Below, one piece after another: positions 1,589 to 62,464 of a stretch of DNA of 64,000 bases (the first letter of the stretch is position 1; each line of letters opens with the position of its first letter). Under the pieces are notes generated by a model. It had not been told where the DNA came from, did no database searches, and saw nothing but the letters and a program-made list of their open reading frames with translations. Made by a program: the position numbers and the translations under genes. Source of the DNA: Octopus vulgaris (Eukaryota); contig OX597843.1 in the NCBI GenBank assembly GCA_951406725.2, positions 8,184,001 to 8,248,000 on the forward strand. Reading direction: 5' to 3'.

Positions 1589-1647
<59 letters not shown>

Positions 1648-1651
<4 letters not shown>

Positions 1652-1856
1652 AATGTGACCTCGTGTGTACCGTTGGCGATTTTTTCCCTCTGTCTTCCCT
1701 TCTCTGGATCTTTCCTTTTCCTATGTTTCTGACAAAGAGCTCCGCTCGAAACGTAAAACCCTCCTTCTTCCCTTCCTTCCTGAGCGTCCAATAATACTAT
1801 ATTTGTTCCACATCCTCGCGTTGTTGTGTTTTCTCTCTGCGTTTTCATGTTTGGAT

Positions 1857-1860
<4 letters not shown>
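1648..1860 (+). mobile_element. Short (TA)n-embedded element with minimal hammerhead-like motif (family H1; Penelope pLTR/retrozyme-like)
   Basis: Also at 6470-6663 and 22028-22240. Motif GTTT-CTGACAA-AGAGC-TCC-GCTC-GAAAC-GTA-AAAC at 1725-1759; flanked by (TA)n on both sides. Confidence 0.65.
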
Positions 1861-1900
<40 letters not shown>

Positions 1901-6469: not shown

Positions 6470-6663
6470 AGTTAATCCAAACATGAAAACACAACAACGC
6501 GAGGACGTGGAACAAATATAGTATTATTGGACGCTCAGGAAGGAAGGGAAGAAGGAGGGTTTAACGTTTCGAGCGGAGCTCTTCGTTGGAAACATAGAAG
6601 AAGGAAAGATCCAGAGAAGGAAAGACAGAGGAAACAAATCGCCAACGGTACACACGAGGTCAC
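6470..6663 (-). mobile_element. Family H1 element, copy 2
   Basis: Reverse complement of 1648-1860; motif GTTT-CCAACGA-AGAGCTCCGCTC-GAAAC-GTT-AAAC at 6559-6593. Confidence 0.65.
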
Positions 6664-6712
<49 letters not shown>

Positions 6713-10394: not shown

Positions 10395-10396
<2 letters not shown>

Positions 10397-10525
10397 GGAG
10401 AATTCACGAAAAAAAGACGAAGACAGGTGGTGTACAAAACAAACAGATGTATTAGTATAACGCTCGGGAATTTAAAAAGTCTTCTACGTTTCGAGCCTAC
10501 CCTCTTCCGCAGAAAGGAACGCAGA
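10395..10525 (-). mobile_element. Family H2 (TA)n-embedded element with hammerhead-like motif
   Basis: Minus strand CTTT-CTGCGGA-AGAGG-GTAG-GCTC-GAAAC-GTA-GAAG (10481-10516); homologous to 49510-49650. Confidence 0.55.
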
Positions 10526-11399: not shown

Positions 11400-12890
11400 A
11401 AGTGCAACAACAACATTGCCACCATAACCACCGGCTACCATCACCACAACCTGCAACAACAACGTAAACTACCCCCACATCAATGCATACCACCGCCGCC
11501 ATATAACACCACCACCAGCAGCAACTCTGCAAAAACAGAATCGCAGGAGGCCAATACTCTCCCTTTCATCATCACCACCCCTACCACAACCTCTACTACA
11601 ACTGGTACTACCATTACATACCACCACCACTACAACTACAACCACCGTCACAACCATCCCCATAACCAATGACGTATACCATCACAAACACCAGAGCGAC
11701 CACCACCGCCACCACTATCTCAAAAATACGAACTCACGACCGCCATCAATACTCGCACCACCACCCACCCACCACCACTACTAATACCTCTGTGTCCACC
11801 AATACCACTCCACCACCACGGCTAACATCACCAACCACCCATACACCATTCGCTACCAAACCACCACATGACACTATCGCCACCACCACCACCACCACCG
11901 TCACTGAAGTGCAAAGCAAGAAGCAAGGACTACCATCAATGCTTTCATCACCACCGCCACAACCACCGCCACCGCCACCACCTCCACCGCCACCATCGTC
12001 ACCGCCACCATCGCCACCGCCGGAACCATCGCTGCCGTCACCTCCACCTCCATCACCACCACCACGAAAGCGCAAAACAAGAACCAGCGACTACGCTCAA
12101 TGCTTTCACCGGCGCCACCACTACCACAAGCCCCAACACCACCATCACAAGCACCGCCACCACCACAAGCAACGCCACCACTACCACCACCACCACCACC
12201 ACCACCACCGCCTCCACCGCTAGAACAACCCCCACCAACACCGCCGCCGCCGCAAAAACACAAAACAAGAACCTAGAACTACCATCATCAATGCTCACAC
12301 CACCATCACAACCACCACCACATGCACCACCACATGCACCACCACCACCACCACATGCACCACCACCACCACCACATGCACCACCACCACCACCACAACC
12401 ACCGCCAACACCACAACCACCGCCACCACCACCAGCAACGCCACCACCACAAGCCCCGCCACCACCACCACAAGCACCGCCACCACCATCACAAGCACCG
12501 CCACCACCAGAACCACCACCATCACCTCCACCGCTAGAACCACCTCCACCTCCACCAACACCGCCGACACCGCCGCCGCAAAAACACAAAACAAGAACCT
12601 AGAACTACCATCATCAATGCCTCTCAAAACCACCACCACCACCACCTCCACCACCAACACCACCACCACCACCACCAGAACTACCACCACCTCCACCGCT
12701 AGAACCACCTCCACCAACACCACCGCCGCCGCCGCCGCAAAAACACAAAACAAGAACCTAGAACTACCATCATCAATGCCTCTCACAACCACCACCATAA
12801 CCACCACCAAACCACCACCACCACCACCACCACCACCACCACCACCACCACCACCACCCACCCCCACCCCCCCACCACCACCATTCGTTA
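11400..12890. repeat. (ACC)n field with a recurrent ~45-nt cassette
   Basis: GCAAAAACACAAAACAAGAACCTAGAACTACCATCATCAATGC near 12252, 12578, 12737; diverged versions near 11909 and 12064. Confidence 0.85.
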
Positions 12891-12989
12891 CCAAACAATA
12901 TGAAAGAACTCAGCCTGTCTTTGAAATCAATGAAAGAATTAGAAAACCTAAACAAATATTGTTTCAAACGACCACGAATTTCAGACAAT

Positions 12990-13090
12990 CCCTTTCTGCT
13001 TTTCACTTCCGGTCGAAAGCTTCCGGTCGCCATCTTCGTTTTTCTAATTTTCGCTAGAGTTTCCCTTCTTTGTGCCGTCGACTATTCTCT
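12990..13090. promoter_or_regulatory. Candidate cis-regulatory island (2x ETS + YY1/Pho motif)
   Basis: ACTTCCGGT 13005-13013, GCTTCCGGT 13019-13027 and CGCCATCTT 13028-13036 in unique sequence between SSR fields. Confidence 0.4.
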
Positions 13091-13355
13091 CGTTATTATT
13101 ATCACTACTACTACCACCACGACTACTACGACTACTACTACTGCTACTACTACTATTACTACTACTACTACTACTACTACTATTACTACTACTACAACTA
13201 CTATTATTACTACTACTAGGACTACTACTACCACCACCACCACCACCACCACCACCACCACCAGTACTACTACTGCTGCTACTACTACTGCTGCCTTTAT
13301 CCTCATCGTCATTATCATCATCACCAGCATTACTATTTATTTTTTCTCTGACGTA

Positions 13356-13389
<34 letters not shown>

Positions 13390-13427
13390 CATTATTATTA
13401 TTATCATTATTATTATTATTATTGTTA

Positions 13428-13486
<59 letters not shown>

Positions 13487-13511
13487 GTTATCATTATTAT
13501 TATTATTATTA

Positions 13512-13554
<43 letters not shown>

Positions 13555-13598
13555 CATTATTATTATTATTATTGTTATCATTATTATTATTATTATTA

Positions 13599-13641
<43 letters not shown>

Positions 13642-13721
13642 CATTATTATCATTATTATTATTATTATTATTATTTTCATTATTATTATTATTATTGTTA
13701 TCATTATTATTATTATTATTA

Positions 13722-13767
<46 letters not shown>

Positions 13768-13805
13768 CATTATTATTATTATCATTATTATTATTATTAT
13801 TATTA

Positions 13806-13848
<43 letters not shown>

Positions 13849-13918
13849 CATTATTATTATTATCATTATTATTATTATTATTATTATCATTATTATTATT
13901 ATTATTATCATTATTATA

Positions 13919-13989
<71 letters not shown>

Positions 13990-14021
13990 CTTTATTATTA
14001 TTATTATTATTGTTATTGCTA

Positions 14022-14067
<46 letters not shown>

Positions 14068-14098
14068 CATTATTATTATTATTATTATCATTATTATA

Positions 14099-14136
<38 letters not shown>

Positions 14137-14749
14137 CGTCTGTTTTGTCTTTTCATTTCGAATTCTCTTTGTATTTGCGTTTAGCTATGTTGTTGCTGCT
14201 GTTGTTGTTGTTATTAGCAGTACTAGCATGGCTGTTGTGGTTGTTGTTTTAAATGCCGTGTGATCTAAGGACGTGACATGATGCTGTTGATGGCAGTGGT
14301 GCTGGCGCTGGTACTGATAGTGGTAGTGGTTGTCATTGTTGTTGTTGTGGTATTGGTAGTGGTGGTTGTGGTGATAGTGATGGTAGTCATGGTTATGATG
14401 GCAGTGGTTGTGGTGGTGCTGGCGCTAGTGTTGACGGTGACGGTGGTTGTGGTATGATGGTCGTCGTTGTAGCGGTGGTGGTTGTGGTGGTGATGGTGGT
14501 GGTTGTGATTGTGGTAGTTGTTGTGATGCCATTTCTTGTAGAAGTAGTTATTGATGTAGTGGAAAGGTGAAGTGATTAGTGGTGTCTTGACTGCCACCAC
14601 GTTCTGAGTTCAAATTCCGCCGAGGTCGTCTTTACATTTCATCCTTTCTGGGTCGATAAATTAAGTACCAGTTGTGTATTGAGGGCGATCTAATCGTCTA
14701 GTTCCCACCCCCAAAATTTCGGAACTTGTGCCTAGTGTAGAAAAGACTA

Positions 14750-14841
<92 letters not shown>

Positions 14842-15025
14842 GATTATTATTATTTATTATTATCATCATTATCATTATTATCATCATCATCATCATCATC
14901 ATTATTATTATTCATTATTATTTATTATTATAATTATTATTATCATTATTACTATTATTAATATCTATTATTATTATTATTATTAAATTTATTATTATTG
15001 TTATTATTATTATTATTATTATTAT

Positions 15026-15063
<38 letters not shown>

Positions 15064-15252
15064 ATTGTAGTAGTAGTATTAGTATTATTATTATTACTAT
15101 TTATTATCATTATTTATTTTTATACATTATTATTATTATTATTATTATTATTATAATTATTATTTATTATTATTAGTAATTTATCATTTTTATTATTATT
15201 GTTATTATTATTATTATCATTATTATTATTATTGTTATTATTATTATTATTA

Positions 15253-15301
<49 letters not shown>

Positions 15302-15370
15302 TATTATTATTATTATTATTTATTACTATTATTATTATTATTATTATTTCATTAATATTATTATCATTAT
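13090..15370. repeat. (ACT)n/(ATT)n/(GGT)n microsatellite field
   Basis: Long ATT runs with ATC/GTT interruptions; source of the poly-I/L/Y ORFs. Confidence 0.95.
14580..14750 (+). mobile_element. SINE C, older tail type, headless
   Basis: CGTTCTGAGTTCAAATTCCGCCGAGGTCG...TTTCATCCTTTCTGGGTCGATAAATTAAGTACCAG, followed by (ATT)n. Confidence 0.8.
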
Positions 15371-15374
15371 TATT

Positions 15375-15590
15375 AAGGCAGTGTTCTGTCATTATCGTTA
15401 GTATGCTGAACGAAATGCTTAAAGGTTTGTACCTGTTTCTACGTTCTGAGTTCAAATTCCGTCGAGATCGACTTCACGCTTTATCCTTCTGGGGCCAGTA
15501 AAATATGTACCAGTGGAACACAGCGGTCGATGTAATCTACTCTTCCCCTCAACCAAAATTGTTGTCCTTGTGGCAAAACTTGAAACCATT
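15375..15590 (+). mobile_element. SINE C, older tail type, diverged, in (ATT)n
   Basis: AAGGCAG...CGAAATGCTTA...CGTTCTGAGTTCAAATTCC...; (ATT)n on both flanks. Confidence 0.7.
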
Positions 15591-15599
15591 ATAATTATT

Positions 15600-15738
15600 A
15601 TTATTATTCGTAGTAGTAATAGTAGTAGTATTAGTAGTAGTCGTTGAGGTAGTAGTTGTTGTAGAAGTAGTAGGTATAGTAGCAGTGGTGGTGGTAGTAG
15701 TAGTCGTTGAGACAGTAGTTGTAGTAGTAGTAGTAGAT

Positions 15739-15777
<39 letters not shown>

Positions 15778-17327
15778 TAGTAGTGGTTGTAGTAGTAGTA
15801 ATATTAGTGGTAGTACTAATAAGTTGAGTGGTGATGATTGCAATGGTAGTGGTGGTAGTTTTAAAAATGGTTGCGCTGGCAATGGTTGTTTGTGTTTGGT
15901 GGTAGATTGGTAGCAATGGGAGCGGGGAAGATGGGGGGTTATGGTTGAGGCGGTGGTGCTGCTGATGCGGCGGTATTGGTGGTGATGGTCGTATGGCGAC
16001 GACAATCGTGGTGGTGGTGATGGTGATGGTGGTGATGACGACGGAAAAAGACTGCGGTCGCGGTGACAATGTTGGTGATGCCCGTGATGATTATAATGAT
16101 GATGAAGATGATGATGATAGCTATGGCGATGGACGTCGACGGTAATGGTGGCGGTGGTGATGGTCGTAGTGATCGCGGTGGTGGTGGTGGTGGTGATGGC
16201 GGAGGGAGCAAGCAACGGGGGCGGTGGTGAGCGCTGGTTTGTTGGTCTTCATAGCCGTTTATTATACGTAGTTTGGTGTTACTGGGGCCGGCCGTGGTGG
16301 TGGGGTGGAGTGGAGGAGGAGATGATGGATTGCAGCAGGGGGGAGCCAGGGGAAAGGAGATGGGGGGGTTCAATGTGATGGTGAGAGGGGAGAGTGTGGT
16401 TCTGGCGGCGGTGGGGTGGCTGGTCTCGGTTTGATTGGGCGCGGCGAAGGATGGCGAAGGATGATGGCGAAACGCGTGGCGGAAATAGTCGAGGGTGGGG
16501 CGGAGGTAGTGTTGACGGTAGTGGAGGTGGTGGTGACAGCAACGGTGGTGGAGGCGGTGGCGGGCGAGTGTGCGGGGTGTGACTAGTGGTTGCCGCTATA
16601 ACTGTAATAGTATTTATGTTGCAATACTGTTGTGATTAATGTATGGCCTGGTTGTGGCGGTGGTGGCGGTGGTGGTGGTGGTGGTTGTGGTGGTGGTGGT
16701 GGTGGTGGTGGTGGTGGTGGTTGATGGTGGCGGCGTTTGTAGTGATGTTGGTGCTGGTGTTATTGTTGTTCTTGTTGTTGTTGTTGGTGGTGGTGGTGGT
16801 GGTGGTGATGGTGGTGGTGGTGGTGGTGTTTTTGTTCAATGGTGTGTGGCCGTGTGTGCAGCGATGTGTTGAGTGATGATGTGTCGAGTAAACGGGTGAG
16901 TGAGAGAATGAGTGAGGGATTGAGTGAACCGGTGACTGAGTGAGAGAAGGAAAGAGAGAGAGAGAGAGAGAGAGGAGCAATAGAGTGGAGTAGACCATGC
17001 TAAGAGATAAAGACGTAGATAAAGAGAGAGAAACAAAGAGAGTGAGTGAGAAAGGGCGCAAAGTGAAAGAGAGAGAGAGAAAAAAACAGAGAGAGAATGG
17101 CTTGATGTAATGGCGGCCGTTGGAGTAAATCTCGGCGGCGGCGGCGGAGTAGTGACGCGGGGCTGTGGAGGGGACGGCGGTATTTGTTCTATTTTTGTTG
17201 TGATTAACTTAGCATATTTTGGGTTTGTTTATTATTCCTTTATTCCCTTCCACTCTTTCACGCTGCCATCAAATCACTTCTTCTCCCCTTATTATCATCA
17301 TCATCATTATTATCATCATTATTATTA

Positions 17328-17391
<64 letters not shown>

Positions 17392-17426
17392 CATTTTTAT
17401 TATTATTATTATTATTATTATCATTA

Positions 17427-17460
<34 letters not shown>

Positions 17461-17467
17461 TTCATTA

Positions 17468-17516
<49 letters not shown>

Positions 17517-17598
17517 CATTATATTATTATTATTATTATCATTATTATTATTATTATTTTTATTATTATTATTTTTATTAATATTATTACTATTATTA

Positions 17599-17633
<35 letters not shown>

Positions 17634-17640
17634 TTCATTA

Positions 17641-17674
<34 letters not shown>

Positions 17675-17759
17675 CATTATATTATTATTATTATTATTAT
17701 CATTATTATTATTATTATTTTTATTATTATTATTTTTATTAATATTATTACTATTATTA

Positions 17760-17820
<61 letters not shown>

Positions 17821-17910
17821 CTTTATTATTATTATCATTATTATTACTATTATTATTATTATTATTATTATTACAAATTCTTCTTCTTCTTCTTATTATT
17901 ATTATTATTA
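15600..17910. repeat. Mosaic (AGT)n/(GGT)n/(GA)n/(ATT)n with small unique islands
   Basis: Direct reading. Confidence 0.9.
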
Positions 17911-18079
17911 TTGTCGTCGTTTGTGTTGTTGTTGCTTTATTTCTTTCGTCCCCCCGCCTCCCCGCCCTCCCCGCCCTCCTCCCCCGCCAACCGGTCCGTT
18001 TCTCCGTCTGTCCGTTCGTCCGCAGTGACTAAATCATTTTCTCATTCGTCTGAAAACTAAACCCCTTTTATATTCTTTT

Positions 18080-19960
18080 TAATTTGATCATTCATTCGTT
18101 CAGCCGTTTATTCCTTTATTGCTTCGATTATTTGCTCATACCTTTATTCTTTCATTCGTTTCATTCCTTCATTCATGTATTTATTTGTTTATTCCTTCAT
18201 ACGTTTATTCGTTTATTCTTTCAATCGTTTCATTCTTTCCTTCCTTCAGTTATTTATTTGCTCATTCCTTCATTCATTAATTCTTTCATTCATTTCATTC
18301 ATTCATTCCTTTCAGTTATATTTGCTTATTCCTTCATTCGATAACTCTTTCAATCATTCGTTTCATTAATTTATTCACTCGCCTTTATTCATACGTTTAT
18401 TCTTTCATTCATTTCATTCATTCCTTCCTTCACTTATTTATTCGATTATTCCTTCATTCGATAATTCTTTCAATCATTCATTTCATTAATTTATGTATTC
18501 ATTTATGTATTTATTTGCTTATTCCTTCATACGTTTATTCTTTCATTCATTTCATTCATTCATCCCTTCAGTTATTTTTTGCTTACTCCTTCATTCGTTA
18601 ATTCTTTCAATCGTTCATTTCATTCATTTATTTACTCGCCGTTATTCATACGTTTATTCTTTCATTCATTTCATTCATTCATTCCTTCACTTATCTATTT
18701 GCTTATTCCTTCATTCGTTAATTCTTTCAATCATTTCATTCATTCCTTCCTTCACTTATTTATTTGCTTATTCCTTTATTCGATAATTCTTTCAATCGTT
18801 CGTTTCATTCACTTATTTACTCGCCTTCATTCATACGCTTATTCTTTCATTCATTTCATTCCTTCATTTATCTATTCATTTGATTATCCCTTCATTCGTT
18901 AATTCTTTCATTCGTTCATTCATTTATTTATTCGCCTATTGTTTAACTCTTTCATTCATTTCATTCTTCTTTTCATTTCTTCATTCATTTATTCGCCTAT
19001 CCGTTCTTCTCTAACTTCACTCATTCGTTCATGTATTCAAGCATCCCATCGTTTATTCGTTTATATCTTGATACAGTTGTTCTTTCGTTCATCCCTTCAG
19101 TAACTCTTTCATTCGTTTCATTCTTTTTCACTTCTTCCTTCATTTACTCGCCTATTCGTTCATTCACTAACTCCTTCATTGGTTCGTACCTGCAAGTGTT
19201 CATTCACCAGTTCGTTCATTCGTTCATACATTTCTTCTTTCATTCATTCCTTCACTAACTCTTTTATTTGCTCGTTCATTCATTATTTCGAACCTTCTTT
19301 CATCCAGCTGTTCAGTTGTTTCTTCATTCATCGATACTTTCATTCATTCATTCTTTTATTCATTCATTCTTCTGATTCATTCTTCCATTCATCGATACTT
19401 TCATTCATTCATTCTTTTATTCATTCATTCTTCTGATTCATTCTTCCATTCATCGATACATCCATTCATTCATTCTTATATTCATTCATTCTTCTGATCG
19501 TTCCACTATCCCTTTGTTCTTTCCTTCACTTATTCATTCAATTTCTCTTTCATTTATTCATTATTTCCATCACTCGTTCATTCGTTCCTTTTCCCCTCTC
19601 TTTTTTTCATTTTCTTCTTCATTCCTTTGCATTAATCTACTCATTTATTCTATTATACGTTTATTCATTCTTCCTTTAATCCATTTCTTTCCTTTATTTC
19701 TTCGTTTTCCATTCGCTCATTCACCTATTTTCTCCTTCAACCTCTCATTCTATCATTCATTCACTCATTCACTAATTCCTGCATCCTTTGATTCAATCAC
19801 TTAAACACCTTCTTCTAAATTCTTTCATTGCACTAATCCTTCGTTCATTCGTACTGTCGCTCATTCTTCGATTTATTTGCTCATTTTTCTTTTTCAGCCT
19901 TTTACTCTTTCATTCATCCAAGAATTCCTTCATTCTTTGTTCCATTCACTTATTCATCTA
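18080..19960. repeat. Degenerate (TTCA)n-derived field with higher-order repetition
   Basis: Recurrent TTCCTTCATTCG(T/A)TAATTCTTTCAATC and ATACGTTTATTCTTTCATTC. Confidence 0.9.
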
Positions 19961-20261
19961 TTTTTCTCCTTCAGACTTTCATTCGAATTGCATCCATGTT
20001 CGAGAAACACGTCGACAAAAGTTTTAGTCAAACAAATCGACCTCATGGCTTATTTTTTCAAAGCTTGGTAGTTACTTTATCGAACATTTTGCCGAACGAC
20101 TAGTTTGCAGGGACGTAAACACACCAACACTGGTTGTCAAGCGGTGATGGGGGCACACAGTGCGAGGCGGCATTTTGGGCAAGACTTTACAAATATAATC
20201 TCGGATCGGTCAATGCTTTATCACTGAATTAGATGTGGTTGAAACTGCAAAGAAGACTGAC

Positions 20262-20346
<85 letters not shown>

Positions 20347-20348
<2 letters not shown>

Positions 20349-20635
20349 AGGCTATCAGATGTTGCTACACATCGCTAGTCACAATGCGCTTCGAATTGTT
20401 TTAGCCTTCGAATGACGCCACCCCGCTGGCTAAGCGAGCAATCCAACAGAAGAAAGAGTGAGAGAACGTGGTTGCAAAACAGTACAGCAGGGATCACCAC
20501 CATCCCCTGCCGGAGCACCGTGGAGCTTTTAGGTGTTTTCGCTCAATAAACACACACAACGCCCGGTCTGGGAATCGAAACCAGGATCCTACGACCGCGA
20601 GTCTGCTGCCCTAACCAGTGGGCAATTGCGCCTCC
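20347..20635 (-). mobile_element. SINE B head/body with alternative tail 2
   Basis: Head and body as in 61471 up to ...CTCTCACTCTT, then an unrelated tail ...GCTTAGCCAGCGGGGTGGCGTCATTCGAAGG...GATAGCCTGGTAT. Confidence 0.8.
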
Positions 20636-20683
20636 ATATATATATATATATATATACATATTCACACACATACACACACACAC

Positions 20684-20730
<47 letters not shown>

Positions 20731-20957
20731 TATATATAGACATGTACATATATTCGTGAGTGTGGATATATACATATCTATATATATAATATGTATATAT
20801 ATGTGTATATATATATATACATATACATATACTGACATATACATATATATACATATATATATATACAAGGATATGTGTAGAAGCATATGTATATATACAT
20901 ATGCTGATATATATATATATACACACGCATATATATATACACGATATGTGTAGAAGC

Positions 20958-21047
<90 letters not shown>

Positions 21048-21361
21048 GCATACATACAAACCAATAAGTATACGTACGTATCTACATAGAAAAATACTCC
21101 TACATATATATATATATATATAGAAAAGAAAACGAGATATCGCTAAAAAGACAATTTAGTCCCACCACTGATGATGGCGTCGTTACATATCTTATAAGCA
21201 AAATCGCGTGCTTCGTTTTGTTTTGTAGATATAGTCTGCGTTACACTGGAAGCCGGATTCACAACAGATGACACGATTATATTAACACAAACGGAAGCAC
21301 TCATGGAGGGCTTGATGCTAACTACTTCTCTCACAGCTGAAAGTTTAAATTGGACAGGACG

Positions 21362-21440
<79 letters not shown>

Positions 21441-22022: not shown

Positions 22023-22027
22023 TAAAT

Positions 22028-22240
22028 TTAATCCAAACAAGAAAGCACAAAAAAACACAACAACGCGAGGACGTGTAACAAATATAGTATTATTGGACGC
22101 TCGGGAAAGAAGGAAAGAAGGAGGGTTTAACGTTTCGAGCGGAGCTCTTCGTCGGAAACATGGGAGAAGGAAAGATCCAGAGAAGGGAAGACAGAGGAAA
22201 AAAAATCGCCAACGGTACACACGCGGTCACATTTTGAAAT
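22028..22240 (-). mobile_element. Family H1 element, copy 3
   Basis: Minus strand GTTT-CCGACGA-AGAGCTCCGCTC-GAAAC-GTT-AAAC at 22125-22159; (TA)n flanks. Confidence 0.65.
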
Positions 22241-31608: not shown

Positions 31609-31981
31609 CAGGTGCGGCTGTGTGGTAAGAAGCTTGCGTCCCAACCACATGGTTCTGGGTTCAGTCCCACTGCGTGGTATCTTGGGCAAGTGTCTTCTAC
31701 TATGGCCTCAGGTCGATCAAAACATTGTGAATCGATTTGGTAGACGGAAACTGAAAGAAGCCCATCATATATGGGCTTACGGCCATATCACATTGAAAGC
31801 ACCGGTTCCCGTCCGATCACCGAAGTTAAGCAACATCAAGCTTAGTTAGTACTTAGATGGGTGACCGCTTGGGAAACCTTGGTGCTGTAAGCATTCCAAA
31901 TGGCGGTGCCCCAGCATGGCCACAGCTCGTGAGCTAAAACTAGATAAAAATAAAATAAAAAATAAAATAATATATATAATT

Positions 31982-34931: not shown

Positions 34932-35168
34932 AACGCATGTCTTCTGGGAAATAAATGCATTCGTAAGAACGTATTATACAAATGTACTGTTAAAATGCTG
35001 AGTGTGCGTTTGTTTATATTGGTTGGACGGCTCATTGCTTGAAACGTCGACATCGGAACCACATTGCATCGATTGAAAACGTTAGGAAGAGATATTGCAC
35101 GCCACTCGCTTACTTTGTGTGGAATCTTAAAGAACGAAATGTACAATAAGACATCACATGGATAGTGT
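34932..35168 (+). mobile_element. Penelope-like element GIY-YIG endonuclease remnant
   Basis: NACLLGNKCIRKNVLYKCTVK[frameshift]AECAFVYIGWTAHCLKRRHRNHIASIENVRKRYCTPLAYFVWNLKERNVQ*DITWIV matches the PLE pattern C.L...C....V.Y...V...YIG.T....K.R..NH..S......T.L...VW.LK......I.W. Confidence 0.75.
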
Positions 35169-45331: not shown

Positions 45332-45507
45332 GGTGATCATATATATATATATATATATATAAGTAGGTAGTGTAAATTTAGGGTGAATACTTGATAAGTG
45401 TAAGCACCCGTATACGCCAGATAGTGGCAGAGGTGAGATAAATTTGATATATTATTTTATTTATTTTATTTGATATTTTATTTTATTTTATTTTATTTTA
45501 TTTTATT

Positions 45508-45569
<62 letters not shown>

Positions 45570-45917
45570 GATTCAGTTGAATTAGGTACTTAACTTGAAG
45601 CACAAAGTCTGTTAAAATAGTTAAGAAAAATTATATTAATGTGTCCTACTTGTTAAAGAAATTCTATATTTTGTGCAGCTGAAGATAGCACTGCAGTTAA
45701 ATTGATGTAATGATTGCATTGTTCAATTAAATGGAGCCGCTTTACTACTTGATTTACTACTGCATTTCTACTTGATATCCTGTTACTTATTTTGATTTTA
45801 TATATATATGTATATAAATTTATATAAATAAGGATAATATCGTTAATCTAAATATCGATCTTATCAAGTGGCCAGCATGGGAATAAAAACCTTCAAAAGT
45901 AATAATTATCTTTAAAA

Positions 45918-46186
45918 TTATAATTTAGGGGATCTAAGAGATGCCTCCACGCTGGAAATAGCAGCCAAAACTTGACTCTAAAACCATATTAAATGTTCAT
46001 ACAGCACCAGGAGAGAAGACAAAAAAAAACAACAAAATAAACTAATAAAAAAATTACTGGATAATTACTAGTTTATTTTGTCTTGTTTTCTCTCCTGGTG
46101 CTGTATGAATATTTAATGTGGTTTTAGAGTCAAGTTTTGGCTGCTATTTCCAGCGTGGATGTATCTCTTAGATACCCTAAATTATA

Positions 46187-46187
<1 letters not shown>
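45918..46187. repeat. Long inverted repeat (arms ~120-130 bp)
   Basis: TTATAATTTAGGG..ATCTAAGAGAT..TCCACGCTGGAAATAGCAGCCAAAACTTGACTCTAAAACCA..CATACAGCACCAGGAGAGAA mirrored at 46069-46187. Confidence 0.9.
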
Positions 46188-46256
<69 letters not shown>

Positions 46257-46370
46257 ACTGCAAAATTAGGACGAATACTTGATAAGTGTAAGCACCAGTA
46301 TACGCCAGATAGTGGCAGAGGTGAGAGAGAATATATCAAATAAAATCAAAAACAGGACAGAAAGGATATC

Positions 46371-49397: not shown

Positions 49398-49509
49398 GTA
49401 TGATTGATTGATTGATTGATTCTAGTTTCAGCTCGCGAGCTGTGGCCATGCTGGGGCACCGCCATTATATATATAGATATATATATATGTGTATATATAT
49501 ACATATGTA

Positions 49510-49650
49510 ACGGGAAAGTTTACTAAAATAAACAAAAGACGAAGGCAGGTGGAGTACAAACAAACAAATGTATTAGTATAGCGCTCAGGAATAGAAATAG
49601 AAAAAAGTCTTTTACGTTTCGAGCCTACGCTCTTCGACAGAAAGATACAC
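49510..49650 (-). mobile_element. Family H2 element, copy 2
   Basis: Minus strand TCTTT-CTGTCGA-AGAGC-GTAG-GCTC-GAAAC-GTA-AAAGA (49608-49645). Confidence 0.6.
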
Positions 49651-49661
49651 ATATATACATA

Positions 49662-49878
49662 TGTAGTGGTTTTTAAATCAAAGCTCGACCTCTTCTTGTC
49701 GAGAGTCCCAGATGAACCTACCTCACGGCAAGAGGTGCAAATGAAGGTAGCTACACCAAACTCCATTCTTCATCAATTGCCACATATTAGTGGAGGCTCC
49801 TAGTAATAACAGTGTAGCGCAAAACGGCGGTGCTTCAGCATGGCCGCAGCTCTTAGCTGGAACTTAAAAAAAAAAAAT
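49662..49878 (+). mobile_element. CR1/L2-group LINE 3' end (ORF2 C-terminus + 3'UTR); probable partner of SINE A
   Basis: VVFKSKLDLFLSRVPDEPTSRQEVQMKVATPNSILHQLPHISGGS* (stop 49801-49803), then GGCGGTGCTTCAGCATGGCCGCAGCTCTTAGCTGGAAC shared with the SINE A tail. Confidence 0.75.
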
Positions 49879-61069: not shown

Positions 61070-62160
61070 ACCAAGTGGGTCACATTTTCCACTCACTTTC
61101 CACAGAGTTCGCATTTCTGGGTGCCGGAAGTTTTATAGATGTTATACTTCACTGAATTGGTAGCGAGAGCCTGGTCCTGTGCAGCAATGATCAGGCTTTC
61201 GGTGGTACGCTTCAAACCACCTCGCTCAAGCCATGCCCACGATGCTATATTATCATCAACGTCTTGTGTATTCCTTTCAAATTGTCCATGCTTTCTCATT
61301 TCAAGAAGGTCTTTTCTCTTCTCCTCAGCTCTCTGGTTAAACTCTTCCTTGTCCATCATTTCATCTGCATTTACACCCGTATCTTTCGCGGCACTTTACA
61401 GCGGGTCTTCATCACTATTTATAAAATACTCAGCAAGCGTTCTCCTTTCGCTCCTTATACAATGGTATGGTGGAGGCGCAATGGCCCAGTGGTTAGGGCA
61501 GCGGACTCGCGGTCATAGGATCGCGGTTTCGATTCCCAGACCGGGCGTTGTGAGTATTTATTGAGCGAAAACACCTAAAGCTCCACGAGGCTCCGGCAGG
61601 GGGTGGTGGTGATCCCTGCTGTACTCTTTCACCACAACTTTCTCTCACTCTTACTTCCTGTTTCTGTTGTACCTGTATTTCAAAGGGCCGGCCTTGTCAC
61701 TCTCTGTGTCACGCTGAATATCCCCGAGAACTACGTTAAGGGTACACGTGTCTGTGGAGTGCTCAGCCACTTGCATGTTAATTTCACGAGCAGGCTGTTC
61801 CGTTGATTCGGATCAACCGGAACCCTCGTCGTCGTAACCGACGGAGTGCTTCCATCCATACAATGGTCTATACTAATTAGTCCTCTGCCACCATTCTTCC
61901 TTTTCATATACAGTCTGTTTACGTTTGCTTTAGGGTTTAGCGCCCCATCCAGCGTCATCAACTTTCTCATCCTTCTTTCTAGTGTTGATATTTCCTCCTG
62001 AGTCCATTTGAGGATGGACGCACTACATCTGACCACCACAACTGCCCAGATATTCATTGTGGTTATCAAATTTTTAGCATTCAGGTTGGATTTCAACACC
62101 ATCTTTACCCTTTTTTGATACGCCTCGCTGACCTTGACTTTCATTTCCCTGTGTAAAATA
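61070..62160 (-). mobile_element. R4/Dong-clade retrotransposon internal fragment (post-RT region to zinc knuckle), split by SINE B
   Basis: YQKRVKMVLKSNLNAKNLITTMNIWAV...RLYMKRKNGGRGLISIDHC|IRSERRTLAEYF...HGQFER...SWAWLERGGLKRTTESLIIAAQDQALATN..KYNI..CELCGK*VENVTHLV; in-frame stops. Confidence 0.88.
61467..61857 (+). mobile_element. SINE B, full length, tail 1, with 10-bp TSD
   Basis: TSD ATACAATGGT at 61457-61466 and 61858-61867; removing the insert restores the LINE reading frame. Confidence 0.93.
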
Positions 62161-62163
62161 TCC

Positions 62164-62214
<51 letters not shown>

Positions 62215-62464
62215 GTTATTGTTATTGTTGTTATTGTTATTGTTGTTGTTATTATTATTATTGATATTATTATTATTATTATTATTATTACTTTTTTTTT
62301 CTTTCAAATTTGCTCCCATTTCTTGCCGAGTGTCTTCCCGATTCCTAGGGCAAAGAAACTTATAGTATACATTGGTAGGCCATTAAACCAAACTCAATAT
62401 TTCGTTCATTTAAAAAAAATTTTTTTTTAAGTTAAATTAAATACATGAGCAGCAACAGTTCTCA

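What the first reader, a model, noticed from the sequence alone, without database searches (positions are those of the whole stretch)
1648..1860. (TA)n-embedded ~200-bp elements with a minimal hammerhead-like fold: two related families, five copies
Seen: H1 (1725-1759 +, 6559-6593 -, 22125-22159 -) and H2 (10481-10516 -, 49608-49645 -) all read stem I - core - A - GAGC loop GCTC - GAAAC - GT(A/T) - stem I' (one H2 copy has GAGG). Stem I changes while keeping its pairing (GTTT/AAAC vs TCTTT/AAAGA) and the stem II loop changes (TCC vs GTAG). No copy has a perfect CUGANGA (CTGACAA, CCAACGA, CCGACGA, CTGCGGA, CTGTCGA), but the position-wise majority is CTGACGA. Both families share downstream TTCC(T/C)GAGCG..TAATAC..ATTTGTT, and all sit in TA-rich SSR. 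Known: Penelope-like elements and retrozymes carry minimal type-I hammerheads with a palindromic stem III that act as dimers. Inference: a TA-associated, ribozyme-bearing non-autonomous element system, possibly with family-wide variant cores.
Basis: partly seen in the sequence, partly recalled or inferred. Interest (0 to 1): 0.75.

Follow-up and report, generated by a model that had tools for sequence, protein, structure and literature searches.

The report
Penelope-type repeats carrying minimal hammerheads
These five short repeats in TA microsatellites carry the sequence pattern of a small hammerhead (predicted self-cutting RNA) and are likely tail-end pieces of Penelope-type jumping genes, a pairing already described in animals, so this is an ordinary new member of a known kind.

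Summary
Observation confirmed. My minimal-hammerhead descriptor hits exactly these five sites, and none in 30 shuffled windows. Both families are very high-copy: 12,756-21,370 contigs laid per run in three runs. H1's majority core is canonical CUGACGA. A U4C subfamily makes up 33-44% of depth, and position 17 is U, C or A, never G. So 'family-wide variant core' fails for H1; H2's core could not be tested. Both H2 copies are 5'-truncated. The same core plus stem II occurs in 117 metagenome loci. In 17 of them (some duplicates) it lies 97-677 nt downstream of a Penelope-type GIY-YIG coding end with the Neptune/Nematis zinc-finger linker. Best reading: pLTR-derived pieces of a (TA)n-targeting Penelope-like element, matching the published min-HHR consensus. 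No coding partner is shown for H1/H2, and cleavage is untested. One extra: a downstream YGAGCG shared by both families could pair with the ribozyme and hold it off (weak). This scan noted the same kind of element before, on other DNA of this and other genomes.

The parts
1648..1860 (+). H1a, 213-bp element between (TA)n tracts
   Evidence: 92-95% identical to H1b and H1c
1725..1759 (+). H1a minimal hammerhead: stem I 1725-28/1756-59, core 1729-35 (CTGACAA, G8A), extra A 1736, stem II 1737-40/1744-47, GAAA 1748-51, palindromic ACGT 1751-54, position 17 at 1755
   Evidence: family majority has G at 1734
1777..1786 (+). TTCC(T/C)GAGCG block shared by H1 and H2; can pair with (C)GCUCG of stem II and G12 (predicted)
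6470..6665 (-). H1b, 196 bp; hammerhead 6559-6593, core CCAACGA (U4C, G5A), GUU at the site
22025..22237 (-). H1c, 213 bp; hammerhead 22125-22159, core CCGACGA (U4C subfamily allele only), GUU at the site
10395..10525 (-). H2a, 131 bp, 5'-truncated; hammerhead 10481-10516, core CTGCGGA (A6C), stem II reduced to 3 bp
49510..49650 (-). H2b, 141 bp, 5'-truncated; hammerhead 49608-49645, core CTGTCGA (A6U)
49651..49665 (-). 5' copy of a 15-bp TA-rich direct repeat abutting H2b (candidate target-site duplication)
   Evidence: such repeats are common in this window, so suggestive only
49495..49509 (-). 3' copy of the same 15-bp direct repeat
1590..1647 (.). (TA)n tract 5' of H1a (likely target site)
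1862..1897 (.). (TA)n tract 3' of H1a

Best explanation
H1 and H2 are two related, very high-copy non-coding repeats that carry a minimal type-I hammerhead motif and sit in (TA)n tracts, and they are likely the terminal-repeat (pLTR) ends of a Penelope-like retroelement, probably of the Neptune type, copied into TA targets by that element's enzymes. Shown: the hammerhead anatomy; a canonical majority core in H1 with a U4C subfamily; high copy number; TA flanks; 5' truncation of both H2 copies; a shared 5' start in three H1 copies; the same core and stem II downstream of Neptune/Nematis-type GIY-YIG coding ends in other animals' DNA. Inferred: (1) RNA comes from tandem or full-length source loci. 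(2) There, two hammerheads would pair through the ACGU palindrome and cut after GUH to release the element RNA. (3) A GIY-YIG endonuclease with the CX2-5CxxC linker would nick (TA)n, and the reverse transcriptase would copy the RNA from its 3' end. (4) Copying that stops early gives H2-like stubs; H1 is likely a fixed short non-autonomous unit or solo pLTR. (5) Because H1 keeps about 108 nt 5' of the cut site, its template was either uncut or re-ligated; single copies are predicted to fold inactive. The five window copies, each with 1-2 core changes and no adjacent partner, are likely inert.
For: Descriptor: 5 of 5 hits, 0 in 30 shuffled windows. Every feature of the published consensus is met: CUGANGAH, G...C stem II, GAAAN, palindrome, NUH, 3-5 bp stem I, U-rich 5' flank. 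H1 laid on 4 runs: G8 90-97%, U4C 33-44%, N7 C>T 3-10%, position 17 U 52-92% and C 4-31% with no G row at 3% or more; no rows at 1729, 1731, 1732, 1735-1751 or 1754. Stem I pair 4 is G-C in 3 H1 copies and C-G in 2 H2 copies; 39 of 40 cells are paired, against 20-52.5% for slid controls. 118 matches in 117 metagenome loci: the unspecified position 17 is C 104, T 12, A 2, G 0. The unspecified stem I is paired at 55 of 69 positions in 23 clusters, null mean 36.9, 0 of 5,000 shuffles as high. 17 of 117 loci have PLE endonuclease-coding sequence on the same strand 97-677 nt upstream, none downstream. L023 has RT (Pfam RVT_1, E 5e-8) upstream of the endonuclease. 26 longer homologs of 390-783 aa; 22 carry RVT_1, 2 carry GIY-YIG, and 25 have CX2-5CxxC. 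The literature ties this linker to TA bias in Neptune. Most min-HHRs are found as single motifs probably from truncated PLEs.
Against: No RT or GIY-YIG sequence adjoins any of the five copies (Pfam on 104 of 364 window ORF segments; tblastn and profile scans of the whole window). Likeness to the relatives is limited to about 22-38 nt of the hammerhead, and a profile of the H1/H2 downstream part finds nothing in the 117 loci, so the Neptune link could be convergence or ribozyme swapping. Only 1 of 118 relatives has (TA)5 within 300 nt. The 17 loci include about five duplicate pairs and the 3 loci that supplied the queries, and most belong to one family. Within H1 the core is not significantly less variable than the rest: 2 of 13 core positions against 29 of 130 others have rows. 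The five-copy covariation is one event (48 of 500 shuffles as high). Rfam gives no hammerhead hit on H1a or H2b.
Confidence: 0.8

Rival explanations
1. H1 is an independent dispersed retrozyme: tandem master copies give unit-length RNA by double cleavage, the RNA circularises, and one round of reverse transcription gives monomers with fixed ends and the ribozyme in the middle. It would still borrow PLE enzymes.
For: Three H1 copies start within 7 nt of each other. The hammerhead is central. Three head-to-tail joints exist (X9 1832->1656, X7 1836->1657 and 1836->1663). Monomeric dispersed retrozyme derivatives are described.
Against: The joints are heterogeneous and tiny (depth 10-63 against millions). 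There are no tandem arrays in the window. Described non-LTR retrozymes carry canonical type-I hammerheads in tandem repeats. A joint through a long TA tract, or at the very ends of the laid stretch, could not be seen, so the test is incomplete.
Confidence: 0.15
2. The elements are PLE-derived, but the hammerhead is now vestigial: H1 and H2 spread without cutting, and the variant cores mark relaxed selection. This differs from the best explanation only in function.
For: U4C in 33-44% of H1 depth. Both H2 copies lack A6. A6C gives kobs below 0.1 per min and U4C considerably lowers activity in vitro. Monomers are predicted inactive, stem I probability 0-0.34 in 4 of 5. Min-HHRs cut poorly even as dimers; 8 of 9 Xenopus dimers showed no product.
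Against: The H1 majority core is canonical, and position 17 varies among U, C and A but not G. The stems are kept between families that are only 65-72% alike. U4C still supports viroid infectivity.
Confidence: 0.3
3. A tRNA-type Pol III SINE, in which GCTCGAAAC is a degenerate B box and the hammerhead likeness is chance.
For: GCTCGAAAC is one letter from the B-box consensus (recalled).
Against: No A or B box by pattern on any copy; T4+ runs inside every copy; ARAGORN finds 0 genes; descriptor shuffles; relatives sit behind PLE coding ends.
Confidence: 0.02
4. A MITE or Helitron-type DNA element inserting at TA.
For: TA flanks; fixed 5' start in H1; two H1 copies begin with TC.
Against: No terminal inverted repeats (2-5 of 20 end matches); no CTRR 3' end (Helitron end rule recalled); 5' truncation in H2.
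Confidence: 0.02

Closest known systems
Minimal hammerheads (min-HHR) of metazoan Penelope-like elements (Cervera and De la Pena 2014, PMC4209133; main text parts 1-2 of 4 and supplement 2 part 2 read)
   Same: Type-I layout, extra nucleotide between 9 and 10.1, G10.1-C11.1, GAAA-C-G-U-H palindromic helix III, 4-5 bp helix I, U-rich 5' flank, mostly single genome-wide copies.
   Different: No octopus entry was found in the searched supplement. Stem II is short (4 bp). H1 has a common U4C subfamily, and both H2 copies lack A6.
Neptune/Nematis-type EN+ PLEs (C-terminal GIY-YIG with CX2-5CxxC linker; Craig et al. 2021, PMC8557442; passages and supplement part 2 read)
   Same: Relatives with the identical core and stem II lie downstream of such coding ends (L023, L064, L076 and others); TA-microsatellite bias is attributed to this linker.
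   Different: No coding region is linked to H1 or H2 themselves; no homology outside the hammerhead was detected.
Hydra-clade PLEs including Hydra-1_Obim (PMC8557442 supplement)
   Same: (TA)n insertion; hammerhead near the 3' end; present in an octopus.
   Different: All 26 Hydra-clade rows have a 3-4 bp helix III and Hydra-1_Obim's hammerhead has another sequence; H1 and H2 have the minimal ACGU form.
Metazoan non-LTR retrozymes (Cervera and de la Pena 2020, PMC7229834, part 1 of 6 and passages; Li et al. 2026, bioRxiv 10.64898/2026.07.22.740005, parts 1-3 of 5)
   Same: Non-coding, 150-400 nt, type-I hammerhead, derived from PLE pLTRs, dispersed monomers occur.
   Different: Defined by tandem repeats with (mostly canonical) hammerheads; H1 and H2 are solo copies in TA tracts with a minimal ribozyme.

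Membership tests
PLE-type minimal hammerhead | CUGANGA core | tested here: met
   H1 majority CUGACGA over 4 runs; 0 of 5 window copies perfect
PLE-type minimal hammerhead | CUGANGA core in the H2 family | tested here: inconclusive
   Both window copies lack A6. One search lists no variants within about 35 nt of the stretch ends, where the core lay.
PLE-type minimal hammerhead | Extra nucleotide between 9 and 10.1; G10.1-C11.1 pair | tested here: met
   5 of 5 copies; no variant rows in H1
PLE-type minimal hammerhead | GAAA, palindromic 15.2/16.2, NUH site | tested here: met
   GAAACGT plus A or T in 5 of 5; position 17 U/C/A in H1 and A/U in H2, no G row
PLE-type minimal hammerhead | Helix I of 3-5 bp kept under sequence change | tested here: met
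   20 of 20 cells paired, one double change and one wobble; a single event, weak alone
PLE-type minimal hammerhead | Self-cleavage as a dimer | not testable with these tools
   ACGU duplex only about -3.5 kcal/mol; no assay
Rfam hammerhead families | Covariance-model match | tested here: not met
   No hammerhead hit at E up to 10 on H1a or H2b; none among the 150 of 432 rows shown for the window
EN+ Penelope-like element (Neptune/Nematis type) | Lies in a pLTR next to an RT plus GIY-YIG frame | tested here: inconclusive
   Not for the 5 copies; yes for 17 of 117 loci with the same core and stem II
EN+ Penelope-like element (Neptune/Nematis type) | 5' truncation | tested here: met
   H2 loose ends behind 49644 and 49651 are pyrimidine-rich on the element strand, not TA
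EN+ Penelope-like element (Neptune/Nematis type) | Short variable target-site duplication | tested here: inconclusive
   15-bp repeat abuts H2b, but TA-rich 15-mer repeats at such spacing are frequent; other copies lie in pure TA
EN+ Penelope-like element (Neptune/Nematis type) | (TA)n insertion bias | tested here: met
   4 of 5 with both ends at (TA)4+, against 2 of 24 controls; TA loose ends before 1653 in 3 runs
EN+ Penelope-like element (Neptune/Nematis type) | Partial tandem or inverted arrangements | tested here: inconclusive
   None in the window; 3 rare head-to-tail joints; 15 of 118 relatives have an inverted core upstream
Hydra-clade PLE hammerhead | Helix III of 3-4 bp | tested here: not met
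   26 of 26 table rows against the minimal ACGU here
Non-LTR retrozyme | Tandem units each with a hammerhead | tested here: not met
   5 of 5 solo in the window; tandems through TA could not be seen in contigs
Non-LTR retrozyme | Abundant circular RNA | not testable with these tools
   Only contigs were available
tRNA-derived SINE | A and B boxes, tRNA head | tested here: not met

The most novel reading that the evidence does not exclude
H1 and H2 are self-throttling ribozyme elements. The conserved downstream YGAGCG block pairs with the 3' strand of stem II and G12, and the slow cores (U4C in over a third of H1; possibly a fixed non-A at position 6 in H2) were selected, so the RNA stays uncut until the Penelope enzyme has copied across the ribozyme. 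This would explain how single copies keep sequence on both sides of the cut site, and would turn the open question of what PLE hammerheads are for into a direct test.
Probability: 0.12. Interest if true: 0.6.

Novelty: new member of a known kind. Interest (0 to 1): 0.3.

Why it matters
It adds two very high-copy families to the known link between minimal hammerheads and Penelope-like elements, in a genome that looks octopus-like (inferred from recalled SINE sequences and earlier scan notes). A 2026 octopus repeat annotation does not mention hammerheads or ribozymes in its main text. The role of PLE hammerheads is stated to be unclear. H1 offers a natural comparison within one young family (U4 against C4, and three letters at the cut site) to ask whether cutting matters for spread.

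Tried and rejected
No whole genome is held, so no genome-wide consensus or partner search was possible. Sequencing-run search: no RNA holder listed; run X7 is only guessed to be RNA and is used here just as a fourth set of contigs. I first read the lack of variant rows over the H2 core as a fixed A6U and rejected that: the tool lists no rows within about 30-40 nt of the stretch ends (in one search the T/G variant at 1661, seen in H1c and in the loose-end consensus, has no row), and both lay calls were then spent. The exact H1/H2 pattern found 0 matches in metagenome contigs, and a looser one 0 in viral contigs. P0002 against viral and prokaryote contigs gave nothing useful. Rfam hits on the window are microsatellite look-alikes plus one 5S rRNA. 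Hydra-1_Obim as parent was rejected on hammerhead sequence and helix III. Absence of CpG decay rows at two core CpGs was not used, because other H1 CpGs sit near the 3% listing limit. Covariation of the downstream block with stem II could not be tested: my pattern fixed stem II, and the 10 other hammerheads found in the loci were not informative. Nearest-neighbour cofolding does not give the active dimer, as expected for a pseudoknotted form. Lunse et al. 2017 is not held; only its title was seen.

Full report
1. Observation. The five motifs are at the stated places. GCTCGAAAC occurs five times in the window, once in each element. H1 copies are 196-213 bp and 92-95% alike; H2 copies are 131-141 bp and 85% alike; H1 and H2 are 65-72% alike over the aligned part. 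I wrote a descriptor from the published min-HHR consensus, after seeing the copies. It finds 0 perfect-core sites, 4 with at most one mismatch and 5 with at most two, which are exactly these elements. It finds none in 30 shuffled windows. Four of five copies have (TA)4+ within 10 nt of both ends, against 2 of 24 SINE-like control copies within 15 nt; 11.6% of the window lies that near a TA tract. The window is 43% simple repeat and looks octopus-like; this rests on SINE sequences that I recall and on earlier scan notes, not on a call that names the species.

2. Anatomy. Each copy reads: U-rich flank, stem I (4-5 bp), C3-A9, an extra A, stem II GAGC/GCUC with a 3-4 nt loop, GAAA, C-G-U, position 17, stem I'. 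This matches each term of the consensus of Cervera and De la Pena, CUGANGAH GNNNNN...NNNNNC GAAAN palindrome NUH, and the three traits they list: extra nucleotide after 9, G10.1-C11.1, palindromic 15.2/16.2. On the five-copy alignment 39 of 40 cells pair. There is one double change (G-C in H1, C-G in H2) and one wobble; slid controls pair at 20-52.5%. It is a single event, and 48 of 500 shuffles reach the same score. Rfam gives no hammerhead hit.

3. The H1 family. Laid on four public runs kept as contigs, H1a drew 20,575, 21,370, 15,611 and 4,933 contigs, most of them 90-99% alike. Depth is not a copy number. By depth, position 1734 is G in 90-97%, so H1a's G8A is a minority allele and the majority core is CUGACGA. 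U4C holds 33-44%. N7 varies C>T at 3-10%. Position 17 is U in 52-92% and C in 4-31%, the rest mostly A, with no G row at 3% or more. No rows appear at 1729, 1731, 1732, 1735-1751 or 1754. Against this: overall, 2 of 13 core positions and 29 of 130 other positions between 1686 and 1828 have rows, so conservation inside this young family is not significant. A>T at 1757 (1-16%) breaks a stem I pair. U4C is a known natural variant that lowers activity in vitro yet permits viroid infectivity; A6C gave under 0.1 per min (PMC3088659, passages). Loose ends before 1653 are TA in three runs, and the three window copies start within 7 nt of each other, which points to a preferred 5' end. Contigs that ran past the start of the laid stretch could not be read, so longer copies are not excluded. 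Three different head-to-tail joints exist at very low depth, one of them in a run guessed to be DNA.

4. The H2 family. H2b drew 12,756, 18,076, 13,218 and 2,743 contigs. Loose ends behind 49644 and 49651 (63-417 contigs per run and place) are pyrimidine-rich on the element strand, so both window copies are 5'-truncated members of longer subfamilies. Other subfamilies share the hammerhead and the TTCCYGAGC block with different spacers. Position 17 is A, or U in 2-28%. The core was not tested: the variant table is blank within about 35 nt of the stretch ends, which I confirmed from a known H1 variant at 1661 that has no row. Both window copies lack A6, which is modest evidence for a variant family. 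Earlier scan notes report A6U families in other genomes; I could not show that they are this family (searches found no look-alikes). A 15-bp direct repeat abuts both ends of H2b. PLEs make 8-10 bp duplications in a rotifer (PMC3846280, passages), but TA-rich 15-mers repeat at this spacing at many other places in the window, so this is suggestive only.

5. Link to Penelope-like elements. No RT or GIY-YIG adjoins the five copies (Pfam on 104 of 364 ORF segments; tblastn and profile scans of all six frames). A decayed GIY-YIG piece lies at about 34970-35150, some 14 kb from the nearest copy (E 3e-5), and is not linked. The pattern CTGANGAAGAGC-N3-6-GCTCGAAACGT found 118 matches in 117 metagenome loci. 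Letters not in the pattern behave as a hammerhead: position 17 is C 104, T 12, A 2, G 0, and stem I pairs at 55 of 69 positions across 23 clusters (null 36.9; 0 of 5,000 shuffles), although 64 matches are one family. In 17 of 117 loci PLE endonuclease-coding sequence ends 97-677 nt upstream on the same strand, and in none downstream. These include about five duplicate pairs and the three loci that gave the queries, and only 48 matches have 1 kb upstream. L023 has an RT (RVT_1) followed by a CX2-5CxxC linker and a GIY-YIG-type end. L064's frame hits GIY-YIG weakly (E 0.0018) and aligns with L076's (E 2e-15). Longer homologs of 390-783 aa carry RVT_1 (22 of 26) and, in two cases, GIY-YIG. A C-terminal endonuclease with this linker defines Neptune and Nematis, and the linker is proposed to cause microsatellite bias in Neptune. 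Limits: likeness to H1/H2 covers only 22-38 nt; the downstream parts show no homology; only 1 of 118 relatives has (TA)5 nearby. The Hydra clade, suggested by earlier notes, does not fit: 26 of 26 rows have a 3-4 bp helix III, and Hydra-1_Obim's hammerhead differs.

6. Mechanism. I commit, at 0.8, to pLTR-derived ends of a (TA)n-targeting Penelope-like element, and at about 0.55 to the Neptune type. Source RNA from tandem or full-length loci would be cut by dimeric hammerheads and reverse-transcribed at nicked TA tracts; these steps are inferred from the literature, not shown here. Single copies are predicted to fold inactive: in H1 the 5' arm of stem I pairs with GAAACGU instead, and stem I probability is 0-0.34 in four of five isolated motifs, 0.85 in H2b. 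That fits templates that were copied across the cut site.

7. The one extra feature. TTCC(T/C)GAGCG is the best-kept block outside the ribozyme. It can pair with (C)GCUCG, and both letters at the variable site pair with G12. Predicted probability in full-length copies is 0.03, 0.40, 0.79, 0.26 and 0.93. Duplex strength against shuffled downstream sequence gives fractions 0.006-0.18, and the copies are not independent. A GAGC lies downstream in 9 of 23 relative clusters, 2.7 expected, but those clusters are kin, the preceding letter there is mostly G, and the largest family lacks it (0 of 64). No covariation test was possible. I give it 0.12.

8. Novelty. Min-HHRs as single genome-wide copies tied to truncated PLEs, TA-targeting PLEs in octopus, and pLTR-derived non-autonomous elements are all in print. 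I did not find these two families or the downstream pairing in nine paper searches. The octopus repeat paper PMC13282606 (passages) has no occurrence of hammerhead or ribozyme in its main text. Lunse et al. 2017, on small PLE hammerhead variants, was not available and may already list such cores. Supplement 1 of PMC4209133 and the bioRxiv supplements were not seen, and repeat libraries such as Repbase could not be searched. This scan has reported the same kind of element several times on other DNA. Verdict: new member of a known kind, interest 0.3.

Noticed in passing
window 31775-31943 (+) and 49422-49465 (-): A full 5S rRNA match (103.7 bits) is followed after 6 nt by a 44-bp stem-loop tail like the 3' end of the abundant local SINE, then A-rich repeats. 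The same 44-bp tail stands alone about 45 nt past H2b's 3' end. Possibly a 5S-headed SINE or chimeric retrocopy.
   Followed up: partly
window 34970-35150 (+): Decayed GIY-YIG endonuclease fragment (profile E 3e-5) between two SINE tails; its downstream residues resemble Hydra-clade PLE endonucleases (recalled, not tested).
   Followed up: partly
window 45918-46017 and 46088-46187: 100-bp inverted pair ending at a (TA)n tract, like the inverted-end structure of PLE insertions; no standard hammerhead by my descriptor.
   Followed up: no
window 45371-45438 and 46259-46326: 68-bp direct repeat, each copy just after a TA tract. On the minus strand the first copy ends in CCCTAAATT, like the inverted pair above; possibly another TA-targeted element end.
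   Followed up: no
window 45670-45700 (+): Lone CTGAAGAT half-core in a short element between TA tracts, with no GAAA partner nearby.
   Followed up: no
window 61734-62303 (-): 190-aa frame resembling the C-terminal part of an R4/Dong-type non-LTR retrotransposon (recalled), in a TAA tract; no Pfam hit.
   Followed up: partly
window 6470-49650: Four of the five copies lie on the minus strand and share the ACGU palindrome, so one long transcript could in principle form H1/H2 heterodimers; the nearest pair is 3.9 kb apart and all cores are mutated. No host exon was found.
   Followed up: no
L076 1590-1760; L023 1300-1470: Neptune-type pLTRs with promoter-like motifs just upstream of the hammerhead, and a GGAGC...GTGTG block 30-45 nt downstream that recurs in several related clusters.
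   Followed up: partly
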